A stretch of 64,000 bases of DNA from Dictyostelium discoideum (lineage: Eukaryota). The notes under the pieces were generated by a model that searched no databases, was not told the origin of the DNA, and saw nothing but the letters and a program-made list of their open reading frames with translations. The stretch covers positions 5,280,001-5,344,000 of the forward strand of contig CM000151.3 of assembly GCA_000004695.1 (NCBI GenBank). The letters are read 5' to 3'. Positions 755-60,709 of the stretch are shown here, piece after piece. A program made the translations under genes and the position numbers. The number at the start of each line of letters is the position of its first letter. Within the stretch, counting starts at the first letter, position 1.

Positions 755-1470
755 AAAAAAATTAATTAACTCATCAAAAAAAAAAAAAAATAAAAAAAAA
801 AAAATAAAAAATAAAAAAAAAAAAAAATATTTTGTTCCAAACTTACTGAAAAAAAATATTTTAATTTTTTTTTTTTTTTTTATTTGTAATGATTTAATTT
901 TATTCAAATTATGGATTTAGTATAGATAAATAGAACATTCAAAAATACACAAAATGGTATGAAATATATATTATACCAATATTATTCCTTCTGTTTTTTT
1001 TTTTTTTTTTTTTTCCAATCAAAAATTTTATTTTTAAAAATAAATTATTTACCACTCAATTTTTTGTAATTATTTTTTTTTGATGGACAAAAAGTAGGGA
1101 ATAAATATATAAAAAATAGATTTCTTATAATTTTTTTTCAATTATTAAATCAATTAAAAAAAAAAACAAAAAAAAATTATTTGATTTTAAAATTAAAAAA
1201 AAACATTAAAATCTATTTTAAAAAAAAATGGCGTTCGCTAAATAATTTGATTTCTTATTTTGATCAATTGGTTTTCAGACCTTTTTTTTTTGAAATTTTT
1301 ATTTTATTTTATTTTATTTTATTTTTGTTAATTTTTTTATTATTTTTATATTAATACATATACATGCAGTGTGTTTTTTTTTTTTTTTCACCCACAACCC
1401 AAAAACTGGAATTGAAAGTGGAGAATTTAAATAGAAATATTTATATTGTTTAAATAATTTTTTTAAAAAT

Positions 1471-2615
1471 TTAATTTTTTTTAATATATAACTCTGATGA
1501 CTCAGCATCAGTAGTAACAGTATTAAGATGAATATTGGATTTAGTTGAGGATGATGTTGATTTCTTAATACTTGAAGAACTTGCAAATCTTTTATCAAAA
1601 GCATATAAAATTGATATGGCAGGTATGATTTCAGTGATTATTAAACCAATGAAAGTAAAGATTATACTAGTGACAGCTTTTACAGAGATTAAAATTATGA
1701 AAATTGAATGAAGTATGAAAGCAACTGATAGAATGATAGTTAGAGTTTTAATTTTTGATTGATTACTCGAATAGGAAGTAGCAGCAGCACCAGCAGCACC
1801 ACTACCTTTACTATTTGAAATTAAATTCCTCATTAATTTAACAATTGAACTACCTAAATAAATAAAAGCAATACCAATTAAAAGTGATAGTAATGCTTGT
1901 ACCACTGAATAAACTATTGATACCACTTGTTGAGGTGTTGAATTTTTCATTTCTTCAAATATTAATCCAACGCAATCTGTATTTGGTTGATAGGGTGTAT
2001 ATTGGAATACTAAAACAATAGCAATGAAAAACAAGTAAATCATAGAGTTTACAGAGGCTACAATTGTGTAGAGTCTTTTTTTCATATTACCAGCTGATGG
2101 ATTAAATTTTAAAACTACAAATACAATTACATACCAAAGTGCAATGATAATACTAAACGATGATAGATAAATGAATGTTGGTAGTACCACTAATACATAA
2201 TCGGATGAAGGTACATCAGTTAATGCACCACTTGGAAGTACAAAGAAATAAATACCTCTCATTATAATGAATGTTGATACTGAAACAATTAATAAATGAG
2301 TTAATTGTAATGGTTTCTTTGATTTAAATCTTTCAATTAAAAATTCAATGGTTTGGAATAAACCATAAATACCAACTAAAATGAAAAAGCATGCTAAAAT
2401 ATAAACTAATACAGTGGTTTTCTTATCTAATACTTGTTTATCTTTATCCTCCCAATCTGATACTCTATTAATTGGATAAATTATAATCTCTTTAATTCCT
2501 TCAGTTATATTTTCAATATTTGAACAATAATAATTAATATTATTAATTAATTTTAATTTTGCTTCACTATTTAATGGTATTAATTTATTATTAACACCAT
2601 CAATACTTTCATTAC

Positions 2616-2652
<37 letters not shown>

Positions 2653-5405
2653 TGATAATTTTATTGCAAAATCATAAATTGGATATGATTTTAAATTTAT
2701 TGATGTAATATTAAAATTCATACAAATTAAAAAATTTTTAAAACCAAATTCAGATTTTAAAATTATACCATCATTTAAAAGTGTACCAATGATTGCATCA
2801 TTTGAATTTAAAATTGCAAAATTATCAGGTTTAAGATAAGATATGAAATTATTTGATAATGGTTGTGGAGTTGAAATTGAATAAATGGTTTTAGAAATTT
2901 GAGATATTGATATCATTTCACAACCATGTGAAATTGAATCATTTTTGAAATTTAATAAACCATTAAAGAATGAAATCGATGTTTGTTCACCATTACAAAC
3001 TATTGATTGAGCCATAATGAGATTGGTTGATTGGAAACATTCTGAATTTCCACCAACATTACAACTACATAAAATTGAATTTAAATAGTTTTCTCTCTTT
3101 TCTTTTTGACAAAATGCTTCTGATGAATATAAAACTGACACTTGTTTATCGGTAGCTTGAACTATTTTCTCATAAAATTTTTGATAATTTAAAACATCTT
3201 TATATTGATATTGAGTGGTGAATGTTTTATTTTCATACCATTTCGATTGAACAAAAACACCTGGTAACCATACTGCATCAACCCATTGAAATTTATTCAT
3301 CCATTTAGTGGCACTACCTGATAAATTATGTTGTTGATTACAATTATTTTCATTCATTTCATTAAATCTAAAATTGTATGGTAAATTATTTGGATTTAAC
3401 ATATCAACTGAATCTTTATAAAATAAATCAATAGTTCTACAACCCATATATGATAAACATTCATCTTTATTAGTTGAAGGTTTCCACCACCATTTTGTTG
3501 TATTAACTCCTTGCTGTTGACAAAGTTCTTTATTTGGTATATCAAATTTTGGATAACAACCTAATGGTGAATCATATTCATCATAGAGTTTACAAGATTT
3601 TATAGATGTTGTATCAACTGTATGATTTGAAATACATTTACCTAAACCATTTGGATAAGGATGTTCATCATCTTTTTCAATTTGATCATAAAAGTATTGA
3701 TAATCAGAACAACGTCCTCTATTTAAACATTCTTGTTTAGTTGTACATTCAATTGGTTTTAAATAACAAAAATCTCTGATAGTATCTAAAATATCATATT
3801 CATCTGGTTTTGTTAAATTCCATACTGGACCTATACAATTATCACTATCTTTTGATGGACAATCAATCCAAGTATAACCACCATCATTGCAATCTTGTTG
3901 ATTAGTGATTGTTGTATAACAAAAGTTATCAATAAATTGAAAACCTGTTACTGATTCACAAAGTGTTGAATCCATTACATATGAAGAATCGGTTTCATTA
4001 AATTTAAACCATAAGCAATTTTCAATTAAACCTTTACATTCATAACCACATGGTTCAGAACAACTACCTCTACTATTTTCACAATCATCTTTATAAATAT
4101 TTGGAATATAACTACCATCGGCTAAAAGACACATTGATAATCCTAGTTCACAAGTTGTTTGATCAATGGTGACATCTTGGGTTGGAGAGAATGGATAATC
4201 TTGATCATATTGAATATCGGGTGAACCAACATGAGATAAAGAACCATTATAAATATGACAAAGTGTTGAGTTTACATCAGTACAATATCCACAAAAACTA
4301 TGTGATGTTGTAAATTTAGTTAATGGTCTACAACGGAAATAAAACTCTGAATAAACTTGTTGGTTATACCCTTTTGGTAACATTAAAAAGTACGCATCAC
4401 AATTAACTTGTTCTGGATTCTCTAAAATTGTTGAATAATCAATCTTTTCAAAAATCCAACCTCTAAGTAAATTTTGAGTTTTATAGGTAATTTCATTTGA
4501 TTGATCAATAAGATTTCCAGTTTCAGAGTTAATATTATTTGTTATATAGTATTTATAAGTTGAATGTTTTGAATAACTTCCTTCAATAACCCAATCTTTA
4601 AATTTTAATTCATTATGAATTGAATTGATAATTGTTGAATTTATATCCAATGTTGAAATTAATGAATAAAGAGTACCCAATGGAATCGCATTCAAAACAC
4701 ATTCAATATAATCATTATCGGTAATTTCATAATTTACAATACATTTCCTAGTGAATAAATCACATTTTCTTGTTCCATGATTAAAACTTTTACAATCATC
4801 ATCAAAAGTACAAAAAGGTGGTTCTAAAATTTTAATTCTACATTTTCTAAGTGCATCATATGTATTTAAATAAGTATTTGTAATTTCTAATCTTGGAATT
4901 TTACATTTATCTTGTTCTTCTCCTCCTTCTCCTCCTCCTTCTAAAAATGATGAGGAATATTTTTGTGTAATATATTGATCTAAAACAATTGATGTACAAT
5001 CTAAACTAAAACATTGATTTGTAATTTTATTAGATTCATAATCTTGAATTTTTAAACTTTGAGTTTTAATTGTTTTTTTTAAACATACTTGAGAGAATAA
5101 TAAATGAAAATTACAACATGGATCTAATTGATAAAGTGGATCTGATATTAAATATGGACATTGATAAGATGTTACATTTGTTTCAAAATTTTCTAATTTT
5201 AAATAATTTAAAATTGAATTTTCACAACCAATCCAATTACTTGTAGATTGTAATAAACCAAGTTTATATTTCCAATTATTTATATCTTTAATATTATCTT
5301 TATTATTCATACTTGTATTAATTATTTCTTGAACTTTTTGAAATTCTTTATAATTACATTCTTGAATTAATTTTAAATTAAAATCTTTAATTTTTAATTT
5401 AATAA

Positions 5406-5439
<34 letters not shown>

Positions 5440-6993
5440 TTATTATTAATAAATTTATTATTAATAAATTTATTATTAATAAATTTATTATTTTATTATT
5501 TTATTATTATTATTATTTTTTTTTAAAAAACTTACATCACCATCAAAATTAAAAAGATTTGATAAAAATTCAATTTCAATATTTAAAGAATCTTCAAGAT
5601 TTAAATATTCAATTATACCTTTACCATAATTTATTGAAAGTATTAAAGCAACTTGATAAGATTTTCCTTTTAATTTAAAATTATCTTGTAAATCATTTTC
5701 CATTATTTGATAATTAAAACCAGGAATAAATTGTAATGATCCAGGTACTGGCCATAATGGATTAATATTATCGATTGGTGATAGAATTGAATAAGGATTA
5801 CAAGAACTAAATTTTGGACAATAGAAATTTTGATTACTTTTTGTTATAATCTTTGAAGATTGAATCAATGCTAATGATGCCTCTAATAAACCCATTGAAC
5901 TAATTGGTTTCATAATTAAACCTTGACTCTTTATAATTGATATTGAATTTGGATAACCTAAAGAATCTTCACAATATTCATTTAGGCAATCCATTTTCAA
6001 GTATAATAATGTTGGATTTTCAAAATAAATTGTTAAACTATTAAATTTATTATAACCATCATCTTTAAAATAAAATAAAAATAAAGAATTAGTAAATTTT
6101 TAAAAAATGATTTTTTTTTTTTTTATTTTTTTTTTATACTTACAACTTTTAATAATCCATTTTGAATTTTGATCATTTGGTTCAGTAATTAAAGGATCAT
6201 CAGTTATAAATAAAGTTGATTCTTCAGCAAAGAAATTAATTAAATAAAATCCAGGATCTTTTACATCAAAACTATATAAAGGATCAGCTATTGTTAAATG
6301 ATTACCCAGGTTTATACATGTATGGTTTGAATCAATATTTACACAATTGGTTGTGTAAGTGTCACCATCTATTGAGGTTGGAATATTTTGATAATTAATT
6401 TCAATTGAAAAAGTTGCTTCGAAAGTTATTGGTGAAATATCCAAGAAATAAGTACCAACATAATACAATAGATTACTACTTTCTGGGCAAACATTTAATA
6501 GTATCTCACTTTCTAATGAATTGAATCTATAAAAATCTTTTTTAAAATGTGAACCAATCATATCTCCATTTAGTATTGTAAATGTGAAAGTTCCTTTGAT
6601 AGGTATCAACTTTATTGTAAAACCTAAATTTGGTTTATCATTTAAAAATCTAAATTGGGTGATGTTTTTGAGAGTATAGTTTGTTGTTGTTGGTGTTGTT
6701 GTTTGGCTAATTTCTAAATTCACCCATTGTTCTGTTTCATCCAATTCAATGCATTTAGGGTTTACACAATTTTCTGTTGGATTATTGGATTTAGTATAAT
6801 CACATAAACATGTACTTTCTGTATCATTATTAAATGTAATTACATTCCCAGTATCAACAGTAAGTGGGCACCCAATTGCAGAATAACGATATAAATCTTC
6901 ATCAAATTCTATATCATATAATGCATACGAAATATCGACCCCCATCGTTGTCACATTCTTATTATAAACAATTTTTTTGATATTACATTTATT

Positions 6994-7216: not shown

Positions 7217-7810
7217 TTTTATTTTTGTTCTAAACAAAATAAAAATAAAAAAAAAAAAATAATTTAAAAAAAAAAAAAAAAATATGAAAATAAAACTTTA
7301 TTTTTAGATTTTTTTTTTATTTCAAAGAAGAAGATTTTAAAAATAATTTGAAAAAAGTGAAAAAAAATCTAAAAAATTTTTTTTTTTTTTTTTATTTTAA
7401 TCACTTTTTTAATTTTTATAAACTTTATATAAAATCACATTTATTTTTTAAGAAAACCAAGAATCCCAGTTGTCAGAGAAAATTTGATTTATTTTATTTG
7501 TTTAATTTTTGTTTTTTTTTTTTTTTTTTTGTCAATTAAAATTCAAAGAAGATTTATTTATTTTTTTACACTAATTTTTTTATTATTGATTATTTTTTTT
7601 TTTATAGATTATTTTTTTTAAATTTTTTTTTTTATCTATTTTTTTTTTATATTATTAATATTTACAAAAAAATCAATTTTTTCATTTTTCTGAAAATATT
7701 ATAAAATTGTATATTATAAAATAATATATAATTTTATAATATTAATAAAATTATATATATTATTTTATATTAAGAGATAACTCTAAAATTTTTGGTGATT
7801 ATTATTATTA

Positions 7811-8668: not shown

Positions 8669-10017
8669 CTTTTTTTTAAAAACCATCTTGATGGTCGTCT
8701 GTTCAATTCTTTTAATGAAACTAAATCAAATATTGAATTATATGAATTGGTGAAAGGACTATATTTGGAAGTACCTATTCCGAATTGGAATATAATAATC
8801 TTTCCATGTTAAATTTTATTAATCAGTATATTCTTTGGATCTTTAAAATTGGATCTTTTGGAAGGGATTTTCAAATTTTTACATTTTTGGAAGTTAGCTT
8901 TAGTGCAACACTTTTTTTTACCTGTGAACTTCTAGGGATTTCCTTGAGTCAGCGGTGTTTTTTAAATTGTATTTTATTTTTTTATTTTTTTTTTTTTTTT
9001 TAAATATAAATAAATTATTTCACAGATTTGGATCTTCAGCAATAATTGTTTATTTCGTTTATTTAGATCAGATTTAGATCTTTATTTTGTAAAGATCAAG
9101 TAAAAAATTAATTTATATCTAAAAAAAAAAATATATGGCCATCAATTTGCGATACCACACTGAATTGTTGAACATTAACACAATAATTTATATAAATGAT
9201 TTATTAGTTAAAAATACTCGCCTAAATTATTGCTCATGTTTTTTCAGAATCTTGTAATAGAAAAATATAATAAAATTAAATAAATATATATAAATTAAAA
9301 TAAAGTAATAATAATAAGTTGATGTTATCGAAAATATCTATAATTATAAATGTTTTTTATTATTGAAAATTTTTAATTTTTATATTTGAGATTTAAAATT
9401 ATGTTTATGAGTTTTTCAATTGATTGACATTAAAAACTCACCACGTGGCTTTTTCCAAAAGTCTAATTATATAAACATAAAATATTTTAGTTTGCGAGCG
9501 AGATTGTATCTAATTTATTATCTTGATAAAACATAATTTTATTGTATCAATTTAATTATTACACAATTATAATACAACACTGAATGGTTCTATAAAGCTA
9601 TAAGCTATGACCTCTAGACATTTTTCATATAAAAACACAATAATATCGATATTACACCAGATATGGATTTGTAATCAACTCTACAGTGATGACAAAATTC
9701 AATACTCAATATTAGACTCGATTTTATTCTCAAAAAATGGTATAAATCTGAATCCTGGGGCCACATAAATAATGTAAAAAATTTTAAACTATCAAATTTT
9801 GAGCAATTGAGTATCAATATATTTAAGCTATAACTCCAAAATAATAATAAATATTCTTAAATCAATTTTTTTATAAAAAAAAAAATCTAAACACTTATTA
9901 TTACTAAAGATCTAAATAAGGATTTGGGTCAAATTATTCAAATTATAATTTGCCACTAAAATTTTCCGAGATGACCAAGATTCGAACCTATGCTGTTTGT
10001 TTTATCCATAAAAAAAG

Positions 10018-10088
10018 TGCCGCGACCTGGAATCGAACCAGGGTCAACAGAGCCACAATCTGATGTACTACCACTATACTATCACGGC
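10018..10088 (-). tRNA. tRNA-His (anticodon GTG)
   Basis: Reverse complement reads GCCGTGATAGTATAGTGGTAGTACATCAGATTGTGGCTCTGTTGACCCTGGTTCGATTCCAGGTCGCGGCA. 7-bp acceptor stem with one G-U pair. D-stem GTAT/GTAC. Anticodon loop TTGTGGC. T-arm CCTGG-TTCGATT-CCAGG. Discriminator A. Confidence 0.85.
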
Positions 10089-34060: not shown

Positions 34061-34109
34061 TGGGACAGGGATCGAACCAACGATCTTAACTTCGAATGTA
34101 ATATAAAAC
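34061..34109 (-). other. tRNA-like 3' fragment (..GTTGGTTCGATCCCTGTCCCA) directly abutting tRNA-Met
   Basis: Contains a T-loop-like GGTTCGATCC motif and a CCCA end but does not fold as a complete tRNA. A partial copy of the tRNA-Met 5' end plus its flank recurs at 34342-34365. Confidence 0.4.
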
Positions 34110-34182
34110 TGTCAAGTCAGAGGATCGAACTCTGGACCTTAGGATTATGAGACCTACGCTCTACCAACTGAGCCAACCTGAC
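34110..34182 (-). tRNA. Elongator tRNA-Met (anticodon CAT)
   Basis: Reverse complement reads GTCAGGTTGGCTCAGTTGGTAGAGCGTAGGTCTCATAATCCTAAGGTCCAGAGTTCGATCCTCTGACTTGACA. Anticodon loop CTCATAA. T-loop TTCGATC, which is not the initiator GATCGAAA. The 31-39 U-U mismatch typical of elongator tRNA-Met is present. Confidence 0.85.
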
Positions 34183-34867
34183 ATCTTGATGTTTTTTTAT
34201 TTTTTTTTGCTGGAATCGATGTACTAACTTTTTCCCAAAAATTCTCCATTTTAATTATTTAGCATCTCAAGGAGAAGCAACTAATAATTGCGTTATCCAA
34301 TTCAAAAAAAAAAACTTGTTCTAAAAAAATCTAGCAACTAAGCCAACCTGACATGTTGATGTTTTTTTGTAATAAAGCTTATTTATTAATTTAAGTTGTT
34401 TTGTTTTTTGAAAATTCTTGGTAGGTTTAAGTTGATAAAACAGTTTTGGAATAATTGACTATCTTTTGATGATCTTCTCTTCTTGTTTTACTGAGAGCCG
34501 ACTATATCTGTTCAACTAAAATCTAAATACATGGGAAACAAATTTCTAAACTTCCTTTATAAAATTAAGAGGCCTAGAAAACCTACAACTATTACTTTTT
34601 TAAATTTAACTAACATAATAAAAAAATAAGATAATAAAATAATAATAATAACCATGGTATAATAAATTGTCTTATTGAGAGAAAAAAAAAAAAAAAAAAA
34701 AAATTATATATATATATATAAATATATAATAACTAATTTACAAATATTACATACTCTAAAAAAATATTATTTTAATGTGTAAATGTGTTTGAAAGTCATT
34801 ATTATTTATTTTCTCTAAATATTATAAAGATAATTTAACAAACACTCTTTTCTTGGAGAATAAATTT

Positions 34868-40534: not shown

Positions 40535-42385
<1,851 letters not shown>

Positions 42386-43068
42386 TTCTTTTTTTTAATA
42401 ATTTAAAAAAAAAAAAAAAATTAAAAAAAAAATTTTAAAAAAAATTTAAAATTATTAATTAAAATAATTTTTTACTTTCTATTTTTTTTTTTTTTTATTT
42501 TAATTCACTTTCTATTTTTATTTAATTTTTTCTGATTTTTCAGTTTATTTTAATTTTTTTATTTTATTATTTTTTATTTATTATTTTATATTTAAATATA
42601 TGATACTAATTTTATGTATAAAAAAAAAAAAAATAAAAAATAAAAACAACAAATGCTGGATGGTTTTTTTTTTTTTTTTTTTTTTTTTTGTCTATGGCAA
42701 AGAGTGGGAAATTTCAATAAAAAAAAAAAAAAAAAGTTAAAAAAATTGAAAATAAAAAAGTTTAAAAACAACTAAATTAATTTTTAAAGTGTTTCCTTTA
42801 CATATTAATTAATCTTAATAGATGTTTATAAATTTTCACATATCTTTTGTTTAGCAAAACACCTATTATTATTTTTTTTTTTTTTAAAAATTTTTTTTTT
42901 TTATTTTTTTTTGTTTCTTTTTTTATTTCTTTTTTTATTTCTTTTTTTATTTCTTTTTTTTTTTAAAATAAAGCTTGTCTGTTTTGTTGGTTCCTTTTTT
43001 TTTTTTCTTGAGTTCCAATACTTGTTTTTTTTATTTATTTTATTTTATATTATTTTATTTTTATTTAT

Positions 43069-43344
43069 TTATTCTTGTTTTGGGGTATTTTCTTTAAAAT
43101 CTTTTGCAAGAGCTTCGTTGACAACTAATTTTCTACCATTGATTTCATTATCAGAATTTATGGCATTTTGAACAGATTCTTTTGATTCAAATTGGACAAA
43201 ACCAAAACCTTTGGAACGTTTAGTAACTCTATCTAATACAACATAACAATCTTTGATATTACCAAATTGTGAGAAATGATTTTTGAGTGCTTCTTTGCAA
43301 ACGGACCATGGTAAACGGGTGACAAAAATTTTATTTAAAGACAT
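43069..43344 (-). CDS. Small single-RRM protein, SLIRP-like (SRA stem-loop-interacting RNA-binding protein)
   Basis: RNP-2 IFVTRL and RNP-1 KGFGFVQF are present. The overall pattern IFVTRLPWSVCKEALKNHFSQFG...GFGFVQFESKESVQNAINSDNEINGRKL parallels human SLIRP (IPWTAASSQLKEHFAQFG...[26 protein letters not shown]). Confidence 0.7.
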   Translation of the reverse strand: MSLNKIFVTRLPWSVCKEALKNHFSQFGNIKDCYVVLDRVTKRSKGFGFVQFESKESVQNAINSDNEINGRKLVVNEALAKDFKENTPKQE

Positions 43345-43647: not shown

Positions 43648-44203
43648 TTATTATTTTTTTTTTAGATTTTTATTTTTTTATTTTTATTGATTTATTATTT
43701 TTTGCTGATTATTTTTCTCTAGATTATCAATACCTTGTTATTAATATTTTTTTTTATTTTTTAATTATTTTTTTTTTTTTTGAATTAATTTCCATAAAAA
43801 AGAGTCGTTTTAATCTAATTTTATAAAATTAGCCTCCGACCAATATATTTTACATATTTTATTTTACATATTTGTTTTTTTTTTTTTTTTTTTTTTTTTT
43901 TATTTCAAAAAATAAATAAATGACTATTATTAAAATCTTATTTAAATATAGTAAAAAATTGTCTTTTTAAAATTTAATATTATTTTTTCTTTGAAAATTT
44001 ATTTATTTTTGAAGTGCCAGTTTAAAAAAAAAAAATTGTTTGCTGGGAAAAAAAAAAAAAAAAAGTCTGGGTTTTGAAAGTAATTTTTTTACTATTTTAT
44101 CCAAAAAAAGCTAATTTTTTATTAGTGTTTTGGTGAACTTATGATTATTGATTAAAAATAGGGTATAATAATTTGAAAAAAAAAAAAAAATAAAAAAAAA
44201 AAA

Positions 44204-44238
<35 letters not shown>

Positions 44239-44373
44239 CGACCCTTTGCTTGGTTTTAATAATAAAACTCAAATTACAAATAAAATAATACTAAACAAAA
44301 AAAAAAAAAAAATTAAAACTTTATTTATTATTTATAAACTTTTATGTATTTGTTACCGAAAAAAAAAAATTTT

Positions 44374-44401
<28 letters not shown>

Positions 44402-44407
<6 letters not shown>

Positions 44408-44500
44408 TTTACAAAAATGATTTTGATTTTTAACGAAAAACCAATGGTTTTTGTAAATTAATCCCGAAAATTTAATATGCGCGGGCCAGGCGCACATATT
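44402..44500 (+). other. Two tandem perfect or near-perfect hairpins followed by a T-run; a candidate small ncRNA or regulatory element
   Basis: GATTAATTTACAAAAA-(31 nt)-TTTTTGTAAATTAATC is a 16-bp perfect inverted repeat. It is followed by AAATTTAATATGCGC-gggccag-GCGCACATATTAAATT, an approximately 20-bp stem with a GC-rich core in an otherwise >90% AT region, then T16. The element lies 290 bp upstream of the gpdA ATG. Confidence 0.4.
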
Positions 44501-44764
44501 AAATTTTATTTTTTTTTTTTTTATATTTTTATTTTATTTTATTTTTTTAATTTTTTTAATTTTTTTTTTTTTTTTCAAAAATTGCTTGTGAACACACAAA
44601 TTTTTTTTTTTTTTTTTTTTATTATTTTTTTCATTTTTCTTTACACAATAAAAAGTATAATTATTTATTTATTATTACTAAAATTAATTTTTTGTTTTAT
44701 TAATTTTTTTTTTTTTTTTTTTTTTACTCTTTCTCTCTTCAGATTTTTCAAATAAATAAATAAA

Positions 44765-45948
<1,184 letters not shown>

Positions 45949-48276: not shown

Positions 48277-49125
48277 TGTTTTGGTTGTATTTTTGAAATT
48301 TAAAAAATAAAAAAAAAATTAAAAAATTAAAAAATGAAATTTTTATTTTTTTTTTTTTATTTTTTTTTTTTAACAATCAAAAAATGAAATTTTATGTTTT
48401 TCATTTTTTTTACAACTATAATATATATAATTTTTTTTTTTTTTTTTTTTTTTTTTTTCACCAAATGTTTTTACAAAATCTAATATAATTCCCTAATTAA
48501 AAAAAATAAAAATAGGAGTAAAATATTACTCCTATTTTTACGGTTATTTCTATTGGTTTGAAAATGAGAATATTATTTTAAATTGTGGATATACCAAAAA
48601 TAAAATAATTAATAAATTTTAATTTCCCAAATAGAAAAAAAAAAAAATATCTTATATAAAAAAAAAAAAAAACGAAAAAACAGAAAAAAAAAGTTTTACA
48701 AATTATCACTGGGGAAAAATTCTGTGGTGGTGTATTTGTTTAAACAAATTTAAATATTTAATCTGTTTGATCTTTAAATTTCCTTTTTTGTAAGTTTTTT
48801 TTTATTACTTTTTATTTTTTATTTTTTTTTTTTTTTTATTTTATTTTTATTTTTTTTTTTTTTTTTTTATTTTTTGCCATAGTGAGGCCAAGTAAAAAGT
48901 TAAAATATGGAAAAAATGGTAAATTAAAAAAATTTTATAGCATGCGTTATTATTGCGTGCAAAATGAAATCCCATGTTTTTTTTTTTTAATTTTTTTTTT
49001 TTTTTTTAATTTTTTTTTTTTTAATTTTTTTTTTTCTATTTTTTTCATTTTTTTTTTTTTTTTTTTTTTCTTTTTCATTTTGATTAATTTATTTATTTAT
49101 TCAAATATATATTATATTAAATAAA

Positions 49126-59599: not shown

Positions 59600-60709
<1,110 letters not shown>

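What the first reader, a model, noticed from the sequence alone, without database searches (positions are those of the whole stretch)
44402..44520. Tandem perfect palindromes with a GC-only core 290 bp upstream of gpdA
A 16-bp perfect inverted repeat (GATTAATTTACAAAAA..TTTTTGTAAATTAATC) is followed by a second about 20-bp stem, TTAATATGCGC(gggccag)GCGCACATATTAA. The core GCGCGGGCCAGGCGCAC is the only GC-rich 17-mer for hundreds of bp, and the element is followed by T16. Candidates are a structured ncRNA, a transcription-factor site for the strongly expressed glycolytic gene, or a terminal inverted repeat of a miniature DNA element.
Basis: seen in the sequence. Interest (0 to 1): 0.55.

Follow-up and report, generated by a model that had tools for sequence, protein, structure and literature searches.

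The report
Strain-specific palindromes in gpdA promoter
Two adjacent hairpin-forming inverted repeats upstream of the Dictyostelium GAPDH gene are real, but they occur only in this strain's lineage and look like by-products of replication template switching laid over an older conserved promoter module, so this is an instructive but ordinary mutational feature.

Summary
A 16-bp perfect inverted repeat (44402-44417 / 44448-44463) is followed 3 nt later by a 17-bp stem with one mismatch (44467-44483 / 44491-44507). That stem closes on the GC-richest 17-mer of the whole 64-kb window. The window is Dictyostelium discoideum AX4-type.

Nine orthologous gpdA promoters show the palindromy is not conserved. 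Two other D. discoideum strains, D. cf. discoideum and D. citrinum all lack the left arm of repeat 1. In the window that arm was made by a 12-nt insertion that is the exact reverse complement of the sequence 30 nt downstream. The perfect 13-bp arms of repeat 2 are also unique to the window. A third perfect repeat 4 kb away (48507-48540) has the same signature. The 46-bp segment between the arms has flipped orientation at least twice among species.

These are the hallmarks of template-switch (quasi-palindrome) mutation. What is conserved are two short motifs inside the element, one of them an exact 14-mer shared with D. purpureum. These are probably gpdA cis-regulatory sites.

There is no support for a known ncRNA family, a conserved RNA structure or a transposon. 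A lineage-specific new hairpin RNA cannot be excluded without expression data.

The parts
44402..44417 (+). IR1 left arm GATTAATTTACAAAAA. Positions 44406-44417 (AATTTACAAAAA) are a 12-nt insertion found only in the window's lineage. The insertion is the exact reverse complement of 44448-44459.
   Evidence: Searches give the coordinates. Alignments show the 12 nt absent in L006, L007, L009, L003 and L004. One search gives P about 5e-6 that a random 12-mer of local composition is the one required.
44418..44447 (.). IR1 spacer. It is part of a 46-bp block (44418-44463) that is conserved in sequence but found in either orientation among species. It carries motif M1 on the minus strand at 44426-44441. 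M1 reads GTTTTTCGTTAAAAAT in the window and GTTTTTCACTAGAAAT in the other D. discoideum strains.
   Evidence: The block is forward in the D. discoideum strains, L009 and D. citrinum. It is reverse in L008 (alignment score 57 against 30) and in D. firmibasis (43 against 29). The null maximum was 40-42.
44448..44463 (+). IR1 right arm TTTTTGTAAATTAATC. This is the ancestral template arm, present in all D. discoideum strains and, with one change, in L009.
44463..44476 (+). Motif M2, CCCGAAAATTTAAT. It is a conserved promoter motif that also forms most of the IR2 left arm.
   Evidence: It matches exactly in L006, L009 and D. purpureum L002:3721-3734, and occurs as 1-3-nt variants in L007, D. citrinum, D. 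dimigraforme, L008 and D. firmibasis. The D. purpureum promoter aligns with the D. discoideum promoter starting at this motif, with a score of 35-41 against a shuffle maximum of 24.
44467..44483 (+). IR2 left arm (13 bp perfect, 17 bp with one mismatch).
44479..44495 (.). GC core GCGCGGGCCAGGCGCAC (loop GGCCAGG at 44484-44490). It is present in the three D. discoideum strains and truncated in L009 (GCGCGGCCAGG). It is absent in L008, D. citrinum, D. dimigraforme and D. firmibasis. D. purpureum has a different GC-containing palindromic island (CCAGAGCTCT) at the same place.
44491..44507 (+). IR2 right arm CGCACATATTAAATTTT. The perfect 13-bp part CATATTAAATTTT is unique to the window. L006 and L007 read CATAATAATTTTT, which gives 11 of 13 complementary positions.
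44374..44398 (.). A25 run on the left flank. On the minus strand it reads as T25 directly after the two hairpins.
44509..44522 (.). T14 run on the right flank.
44587..44598 (.). A second conserved promoter box, TGTGAACACACA. D. citrinum carries its exact reverse complement TGTGTGTTCACA, and L008 a shorter inverted form TGTGTTCACA. This is a micro-inversion of a 4-nt loop between the TGTG and CACA arms.
44765..45948 (+). gpdA (GAPDH) gene with three exons. The spliced product is identical to D. discoideum AX4 XP_643857.1.
48507..48540 (.). An independent perfect inverted repeat (15-bp arms, 4-nt loop) that is also private to the window's lineage. It is not part of the promoter element. It shows the same mutational signature.

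Best explanation
The element is a piece of the gpdA upstream regulatory region on which short-range template switching during DNA replication (quasi-palindrome mutation) has built two perfect hairpin-type inverted repeats in the AX4 lineage.

Shown:
- The right arm of IR1 and the left arm of IR2 are old sequence shared with relatives.
- The left arm of IR1 was made by a 12-nt insertion that copies the opposite strand of the sequence 30 nt downstream. This extended a pre-existing 4-bp GATT/AATC repeat to 16 bp.
- The right arm of IR2 differs from conspecific strains at clustered positions, and those differences raise its complementarity to 13 of 13.
- The same 46-bp block has been inverted at least twice among species.
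- D. citrinum independently grew its own 10-bp flanking repeat around that block.

Inferred:
- The nascent strand folded back on, or switched to, the complementary template at the short repeat, copied a stretch and then returned.
- The palindromy itself has no conserved function.
- The conserved motifs M1 (GTTTTTCAYYAGAAAT) and M2 (CCCKAAAATTTAAT), and perhaps the GC box, are protein-binding sites that drive or modulate gpdA transcription and work in either orientation.
For: Identity of the window:
- The window is AX4-type D. discoideum.

The 12-nt insertion:
- Alignments of nine orthologous promoters show the insertion only in the window.
- The outgroups L009 and D. citrinum lack it, so it is derived.
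- The chance that a random 12-mer is the exact arm-extending reverse complement is about 5e-6.

Hairpin stability in relatives:
- For hairpin 1, only the window folds significantly on both strands (z = -4.4 and -5.1). D. citrinum strain 1, with its own different repeat, has z = -3.5. L006, L007, L008, L009 and D. firmibasis are between about -1.3 and +0.5.
- For hairpin 2, the window has z = -4.6, L006 and L007 -1.3 to -2.5, and L009 between about -1 and +0.5.
- There is no covariation. In 340 of 500 shuffles the score was as high as observed, and 8 of the 16 IR1 pairs exist only in the window.

Inversion of the block:
- The block is reverse-oriented in L008 and D. firmibasis and forward in the others.
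- On a tree where L008 nests inside the D. discoideum complex, this requires at least 2 inversions.

The same process elsewhere:
- A third perfect repeat at 48507-48540 is also private to the window. Its right arm replaces non-complementary sequence found in L006 and L007.
- Perfect repeats are 3- to 14-fold over-represented across the window.

Conserved motifs.

Literature:
- It is also known to explain mutation clusters and create perfect hairpins (PMC5453318, PMC8794818).
Against: - The polarity of the IR2 arm changes could not be resolved, because L009 and more distant species are too diverged there.
- At least two or three separate events within 110 bp in one lineage must be assumed. This is plausible, because repeats promote further switching, but it is still a coincidence under strict neutrality.
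- The window has 3 private perfect repeats in 9.2 kb, against 0-1 in each of the nine comparator sequences (eight genomes). This could hint at selection, a lineage-specific mutational bias or an assembly difference.
- L006 and L007 are nearly identical in this promoter, so they count as one comparator lineage.
- In both hairpins the single mismatch is a G.U wobble on the minus strand and A.C on the plus strand. This is weak evidence for a minus-strand RNA.
- No expression, binding or population data were available.
- No independent AX4 assembly could be retrieved.
Confidence: 0.7

Rival explanations
1. A newly born, lineage-specific hairpin RNA. For example, a miRNA-like precursor or a structured divergent transcript made from the minus strand of the gpdA promoter region and ending at the T25 run.
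For: - The fold is strong and slightly better on the minus strand (-36.9 kcal/mol, z = -6.2).
- Both stem mismatches become G.U on the minus strand.
- On the minus strand, T25 follows the element.
- Hairpin 1 has about -0.3 kcal/mol per nt, which passes the -0.2 threshold used for D. discoideum miRNA hairpins.
- Template switching is reported to generate new miRNA hairpins (bioRxiv 10.1101/2023.04.19.537475).
Against: - There is no Rfam match.
- No DUSE lies about 60 nt upstream on either strand.
- The sequence is not in the miRNA supplement of PMC6161686.
- The structure is absent in conspecific strains, with no covariation.
- Both mismatches being G.U on the same strand has a 50% chance expectation.
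- T runs are everywhere in this genome.
Confidence: 0.08
2. The palindromes themselves are functional DNA elements. They could be binding sites for dimeric factors, or cruciform-forming sequences that tune the strong gpdA promoter, and they were selected in the AX4 lineage.
For: - They lie over conserved promoter motifs.
- The IR2 right arm is an inverted second copy of the A/T part of M2.
- GC-rich boxes in very AT-rich Dictyostelium promoters are typical regulatory elements (own knowledge).
- D. citrinum independently evolved a flanking repeat around the same block.
Against: - The arms are absent in other D. discoideum strains, which also must express GAPDH highly.
- The 16-bp arms are 30 bp apart, far longer than any usual factor site.
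- In AX4, motif M1 is degraded rather than improved.
- The unrelated intergenic repeat at 48507-48540 shows the same signature, which argues for a mutational process rather than promoter-specific selection.
Confidence: 0.12
3. A miniature transposable element, or a transposon excision footprint. The arms would be terminal inverted repeats, or the GC core would be inserted filler DNA.
For: - Terminal-repeat-like arms are present.
- The GC core looks like a 17-21-nt insertion compared with L008, D. citrinum, D. dimigraforme and D. firmibasis.
Against: - The arm and the core are each single copy in the 64-kb window and absent elsewhere in the nine 9-kb loci.
- There are no direct duplications flanking either repeat.
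- The interior of IR1 is orthologous promoter DNA in every species.
- The arm arose by a local inverted duplication.
- D. purpureum also has a GC island at the same position, so the core may be old.
- There was no hit in the metagenome scan or in the literature sequence search.
Confidence: 0.04
4. A sequence artefact. The palindromes would be assembly or cloning errors in the reference, or the comparator long-read assemblies would have mis-resolved them.
For: - Three private perfect repeats occur in the window, against 0-1 in each of the other genomes.
- No independent AX4-type assembly could be retrieved.
Against: - L006, L007 and L009 agree with each other on a specific alternative sequence, not on a collapsed or ambiguous one.
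- The differences include substitutions as well as the insertion.
- The surrounding alignment is clean.
Confidence: 0.04

Closest known systems
Short-range template-switch (quasi-palindrome) mutations. Löytynoja & Goldman 2017, PMC5453318. Abraham & Hazkani-Covo 2021, PMC8604942.
   Same: - A cluster of changes or an insertion is exactly the reverse complement of nearby sequence.
- An imperfect short repeat is converted into a longer perfect one (arm homogenisation).
- The spacer between the arms is inverted in related lineages.
- The events recur at the same site.
   Different: - Those studies describe human, great-ape and yeast genomes. No description for Dictyostelium was found in the searchable library.
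- Here several events overlie one promoter module of a housekeeping gene, in a genome with 23% G+C.
Creation of RNA hairpins and new miRNA genes by template switching. Mönttinen & Löytynoja 2022, PMC8794818. bioRxiv 10.1101/2023.04.19.537475.
   Same: A perfect stem of 16 or more bp appears in one step in one lineage. The resulting hairpin has the thermodynamic quality of a precursor.
   Different: There is no evidence that this locus is transcribed or processed. It lies in a promoter, not in a known transcript.
Minute inversions of hairpin loops in AT-rich non-coding DNA, for example chloroplast spacers (own knowledge: Kelchner & Wendel 1996).
   Same: Short segments bounded by inverted repeats flip recurrently and homoplastically among close relatives. 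Here this applies to the 46-bp block and to the TGTG-AACA-CACA box.
   Different: This is a nuclear promoter. The flipped segment carries conserved motifs, so orientation-independent function is implied.
Dictyostelium Class I RNAs and DUSE-driven ncRNA genes (Kjellin et al. 2021, PMC7919456).
   Same: A small GC-richer island in an AT-rich intergenic region, with a stem and a downstream T run. M2 contains CCC like the DUSE element.
   Different: - There is no DUSE consensus at about -60.
- There is no 11-nt motif.
- There is no terminal short stem with G...CUGU ends.
- The structure is not conserved within the species.
- There is no Rfam hit.
Miniature inverted-repeat elements of D. discoideum such as thug-S (mentioned in PMC6161686).
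   Same: Inverted repeat arms that can fold back.
   Different: The element is single copy in all sequence available here, has no target-site duplication, has an orthologous interior and has an arm created in place.

Membership tests
Template-switch (quasi-palindrome) mutation product | The derived sequence differs from the ancestral one by a clustered change or insertion, not by scattered substitutions. | tested here: met
   There is a 12-nt insertion at 44406-44417 relative to L006, L007, L009, L003 and L004. There is a 5-of-9-nt cluster at 48522-48530 relative to L006 and L007.
Template-switch (quasi-palindrome) mutation product | The new sequence is the exact reverse complement of a nearby pre-existing sequence and extends an existing short repeat. 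| tested here: met
   AATTTACAAAAA is the reverse complement of TTTTTGTAAATT at 44448-44459 and adjoins the pre-existing GATT/AATC repeat. P is about 5e-6.
Template-switch (quasi-palindrome) mutation product | Outgroups show that the non-palindromic state is ancestral. | tested here: met
   This holds for IR1: L009 and D. citrinum lack the insertion, and the tree is. For the IR2 right arm and for 48507-48540 the polarity is inconclusive, because the outgroups are too diverged.
Template-switch (quasi-palindrome) mutation product | Spacer inversion between the same arms in related lineages. | tested here: met
   The block is reverse-oriented in L008 and D. firmibasis and forward in the D. discoideum strains, L009 and D. 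citrinum.
Conserved structured ncRNA (any Rfam family) | A match to a curated covariance model. | tested here: not met
   No hit at the gathering threshold in the window apart from two tRNAs. No hit at E <= 10 in 43900-44900.
Conserved structured ncRNA (any Rfam family) | The structure is conserved with compensatory changes in relatives. | tested here: not met
   z-scores are between about -1.3 and +0.5 in L006, L007 and L009. The covariation score is no better than in shuffles, 340 of 500.
Dictyostelium Class I RNA | A DUSE element (WCCCAYAA, with CCC) about 60 nt upstream of the start, or upstream of a TGTG box. | tested here: not met
   The nearest consensus match is at 45332-45339, inside a gpdA exon. 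The feature definition comes from PMC7919456, and the consensus string comes from own knowledge.
Dictyostelium Class I RNA | A 42-65-nt RNA with a short terminal stem and a conserved 11-nt motif. | tested here: not met
   The element is 106 nt with two long internal hairpins, and no family match was found.
D. discoideum miRNA precursor | A hairpin with folding energy below -0.2 kcal/mol per nt. | tested here: met
   Hairpin 1 folds at about -18 to -19 kcal/mol, with the stem-loop spanning 62 nt. The criterion is from PMC6161686.
D. discoideum miRNA precursor | DrnB-dependent 21-nt 5p/3p reads with a 2-nt overhang. | not testable with these tools
   No read data were available. The sequence is absent from the held supplement of PMC6161686.
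Miniature inverted-repeat transposable element | Multiple dispersed copies. | tested here: inconclusive
   There is one copy in the 64-kb window and none elsewhere in the nine 9-kb loci. The whole D. discoideum genome was not searchable here.
Miniature inverted-repeat transposable element | Presence or absence of the whole element, with a target-site duplication, at the orthologous site. | tested here: not met
   The interior and one arm are present in all relatives, only 12 nt are added, and there are no flanking direct repeats.
cis-regulatory (factor-binding) promoter motif | Phylogenetic footprint: a short motif conserved at a similar distance from the ATG in otherwise unalignable promoters. 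| tested here: met
   M2 is exact in D. purpureum at -280 and in the window at -302. M1 is found in 8 of 9 relatives, in either orientation.
cis-regulatory (factor-binding) promoter motif | Protein binding, or an effect on transcription. | not testable with these tools
   This needs EMSA, ChIP or reporter deletions.

The most novel reading that the evidence does not exclude
The double hairpin is a gene caught at birth. In the AX4 lineage, template switching would have turned part of the gpdA upstream region into a transcribed, Dicer-competent or otherwise functional hairpin RNA on the minus strand, as a divergent transcript ending at T25. This would make it a dated example of new small-RNA locus origin in Amoebozoa.
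Probability: 0.06. Interest if true: 0.6.

Novelty: new member of a known kind. Interest (0 to 1): 0.3.

Why it matters
This is a clean, polarised example of how perfect hairpins can arise in one step by replication template switching in an extremely AT-rich eukaryotic genome. The ancestral and derived states are both visible in sequenced relatives.

It is also a caution. Statistically striking palindromes in Dictyostelium intergenic DNA need not be functional elements, ncRNA genes or transposons.

As a by-product, the comparison defines candidate gpdA cis-elements: M2 CCCKAAAATTTAAT, M1 GTTTTTCAYYAGAAAT and the TGTGAACACACA box. These are conserved across Group 4 dictyostelids, tolerate inversion and could be tested directly. 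gpdA is widely used as an expression control in this organism.

Tried and rejected
- Rfam at the gathering threshold on the whole window, and at E <= 10 on 43900-44900: nothing but two tRNAs.
- ARAGORN: no tRNA near the element.
- The generic repeat finder was swamped by A/T runs. It was replaced by a custom perfect-repeat scan with a complexity filter.
- Exact-protein look-ups to obtain an independent AX4-type assembly all failed. These used the RRM ORF, the AX4 GAPDH and the 616-aa ORF.
- A metagenome scan for the 21-nt core found 0 hits.
- A literature full-text search for the arm and core sequences found 0 papers.
- The miRNA supplement of PMC6161686 was searched for arm and core substrings: 0 hits.
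- A DUSE consensus search found none in a suitable position.
- A bacterial-type intrinsic terminator (hairpin plus T run) was considered and dropped, because the organism is a eukaryote with ubiquitous T runs.
- E2F-like and STAT/GAS-like readings of the core and of M1 were considered from memory only. They are not claimed.
- An H/ACA snoRNA (two hairpins) was rejected. The hinge is 3 nt, there are no H or ACA boxes and there is no pseudouridylation pocket.

Full report
**What the window is.** The sequence is 23% G+C, with poly-Asn ORFs and short AT-rich introns. Splicing the three GAPDH exons (ATG at 44765) gives a 335-aa protein. It is identical to D. discoideum AX4 XP_643857.1 and differs by 1-38 residues from eight relatives. 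The element lies in the 1.4-kb spacer between a small minus-strand RRM ORF (43069-43344) and gpdA.

**Checking the observation.**
- IR1 has 16-bp perfect arms at 44402-44417 and 44448-44463 with 30 nt between them. The spacer pairs partly with itself.
- IR2 starts 3 nt later. It has 13-bp perfect arms (44467-44479 / 44495-44507). These continue, across one C.A mismatch, to 17-bp arms around the loop GGCCAGG.
- The T run that follows is 14 nt, not 16.
- With low-complexity arms excluded, the 64-kb window has 2 perfect repeats of at least 16 bp against 0.13 expected. It has 6 of at least 14 bp against 0.43 expected. Two of them sitting side by side is far beyond chance.
- The 131-nt segment folds with z = -5.1 on the plus strand and z = -6.2 on the minus strand. 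As DNA, z = -5.2.
- The GC core (15 of 17 G+C) is the GC-richest 17-mer of the whole window.

**Known RNA families.** Rfam finds only two tRNAs in the window and nothing, even at E <= 10, within 500 nt of the element. The DUSE promoter element that precedes Dictyostelium Class I and other small RNA genes (PMC7919456) is absent at any suitable distance. The arm and core sequences are not in the miRNA supplement of PMC6161686 or in any searchable paper.

**Comparative data.** The GAPDH protein search and the cluster listing led to nine orthologous loci:
- D. firmibasis (L001)
- D. purpureum (L002)
- two D. citrinum (L003, L004)
- D. dimigraforme (L005)
- two further D. discoideum strains (L006, L007)
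- two D. cf. discoideum (L008, L009)

Over gpdA plus the next gene, the window differs from:

| Comparator | Divergence |
|---|---|
| L006 / L007 | 1.7-2.3% |
| L009 | 3.9% |
| L008 | 4.8% |
| D. citrinum | about 8% |
| D. firmibasis / D. dimigraforme | about 11% |
| D. purpureum | 23% |

The neighbour-joining tree places L008 and L009 inside the D. discoideum complex, with D. citrinum outside it. In the promoter itself, L006 and L007 are almost identical to each other and differ from the window at 7% of aligned positions. They therefore count as one comparator lineage.

**The palindromes are not conserved.**
- L006, L007, L009 and D. citrinum all have the IR1 right arm (TTTTTGTAAATTAATC or a close variant) and the spacer, but not the left arm.
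- Where the window reads GATT-AATTTACAAAAA-TGATTTTG, they read GATT-TGATTTTG.
- The extra 12 nt are the exact reverse complement of 44448-44459. They adjoin a pre-existing GATT/AATC pair, so a 4-bp repeat became a 16-bp one. The chance of this for a random 12-mer of local composition is about 5e-6.
- The outgroups lack the insertion, so it is derived in the window's lineage.
- The IR2 right arm is CATATTAAATTTT only in the window. L006 and L007 have CATAATAATTTTT (11 of 13 complementary), and L009 is more different still. The polarity of these changes could not be resolved.
- For hairpin 1, only the window folds significantly on both strands (z = -4.4 and -5.1). One D. citrinum strain has z = -3.5 with its own, different 10-bp repeat GGATATGATT/AATCATATCC. 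L006, L007, L008, L009 and D. firmibasis lie between about -1.3 and +0.5.
- Counting the window's pairs across the alignment gives no covariation. In 340 of 500 shuffles the score was as high as observed, and half of the IR1 pairs exist in the window alone.

**The spacer block flips.** The 46-bp block TGATTTTGATTTCTAGTGAAAAACCAATGGTTTTTGTAAATTAATC is forward in the D. discoideum strains, L009 and D. citrinum. It is reverse-complemented in L008 (score 57 against 30) and in D. firmibasis (43 against 29). The null maximum was 40-42. Its core motif is also in the reverse orientation in D. purpureum. Given the tree, at least two inversions, or sorting of an old polymorphism, are needed. A second conserved box, TGTGAACACACA at 44587-44598, is the exact reverse complement TGTGTGTTCACA in D. 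citrinum, with a shorter inverted form in L008.

**The same signature elsewhere.** The only other long perfect repeat in the part of the window covered by the comparators is at 48507-48540 (15-bp arms, 4-nt loop). It is also private to the window. L006 and L007 have the left arm, followed by non-complementary AATAAAAAT where the window has TTACTCCTA.

**Mechanism.** The three observations are arm extension or homogenisation by reverse-complement copying, inversion of the spacer, and recurrence at one site. [quoted passage not shown] I therefore conclude, with confidence about 0.7, that the perfect palindromes are products of this mutational process and have no conserved function as palindromes. 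The reverse-complement copying is shown. The replication-fork mechanism is inferred.

**What is conserved.**
- Motif M2, CCCKAAAATTTAAT (44463-44476), forms most of the IR2 left arm. It is exact in L006, L009 and D. purpureum (at -280, against -302 in the window). It occurs as close variants in all the other species.
- The D. purpureum promoter aligns significantly with the D. discoideum promoter, starting at this motif (score 35-41, shuffle maximum 24).
- Motif M1, GTTTTTCAYYAGAAAT, lies in the block and is kept in either orientation in 8 of 9 relatives. It is partly degraded in the window.
- The GC core is present in D. discoideum, truncated in L009 and absent in four other species. D. purpureum has a different GC-containing palindromic island at the same position, so the age of the core is unclear.
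- These footprints suggest real gpdA cis-elements. That is an inference from conservation only.

**Rivals.**
- A newly born hairpin RNA is not excluded. The minus strand folds slightly better, both mismatches are G.U on that strand, and T25 follows on that strand. This evidence is weak, so I give it about 0.08.
- Selection for the palindromes as DNA elements gets about 0.12.
- A transposon or excision footprint gets about 0.04.
- A sequence artefact gets about 0.04.

**Caveats.**
- The whole D. discoideum genome could not be searched.
- No independent AX4 assembly could be fetched.
- No expression data were available.

**Verdict.** The feature is real and statistically striking, but it is explained by a known mutational mechanism acting on a conserved promoter module. 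The ncRNA and transposon ideas are not supported. I found no description of template-switch mutations in Dictyostelium in the searchable library. I therefore file it as a new member of a known kind, with modest interest.

Noticed in passing
window 48507-48540: A perfect inverted repeat, TAAAAATAGGAGTAA-aata-TTACTCCTATTTTTA, lies between the glyoxalase and citrate synthase genes. L006 (around 7823) and L007 (around 7861) have only the left arm, so it is a second lineage-private repeat with a template-switch signature.
   Followed up: yes
window 44587-44598; L003:3844-3855; L004:3835-3846; L008:3813-3822: The conserved promoter box TGTGAACACACA appears as its exact reverse complement TGTGTGTTCACA in D. 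citrinum. L008 has a shorter inverted form, TGTGTTCACA. This is a 4-nt loop flip between the TGTG and CACA arms, and it is homoplastic on the species tree.
   Followed up: partly
window 40535-43344 against L001-L005 positions 1200-3100: There is a synteny break just upstream of gpdA. The D. discoideum complex has a poly-Asn ORF (616 aa) and a 91-aa RRM ORF there. D. citrinum, D. firmibasis, D. dimigraforme and D. purpureum have a 2-oxoacid dehydrogenase E2 gene at that position.
   Followed up: no
window 43069-43344 (minus strand): A 91-aa RRM-type ORF is not called as a gene in the other assemblies, but its start is conserved in L006 and L007 (MNKIFVTRLPWSV...). It may be an unannotated or multi-exon gene that shares the intergenic region with gpdA.
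   Followed up: partly
window 5447-5490 and 7695-7758: There are clusters of overlapping 12-14-bp perfect AT-only inverted repeats. Across the window, perfect repeats of at least 14 bp are about 14-fold over expectation.
   Followed up: no
L003:3686-3695 / 3736-3745: D. citrinum strain 1 has its own perfect 10-bp repeat GGATATGATT/AATCATATCC around the same promoter block. It appears to have been made by a short insertion next to the CCCG of motif M2. Strain 2 (L004) has 9 of 10 positions complementary.
   Followed up: partly
window 60030-60124: ARAGORN calls a 95-nt tRNA-Leu(CAG), probably intron-containing, that Rfam did not report at the gathering threshold. The other tRNAs are at 10017-10088 (His) and 34109-34183 (Met).
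   Followed up: no
GAPDH residue 268 (window about 45750): The window and AX4 have Asp at position 268. All seven 335-aa relatives in the D. discoideum-group cluster that could be compared position by position have Glu there, so this is an AX4-lineage private substitution.
   Followed up: no
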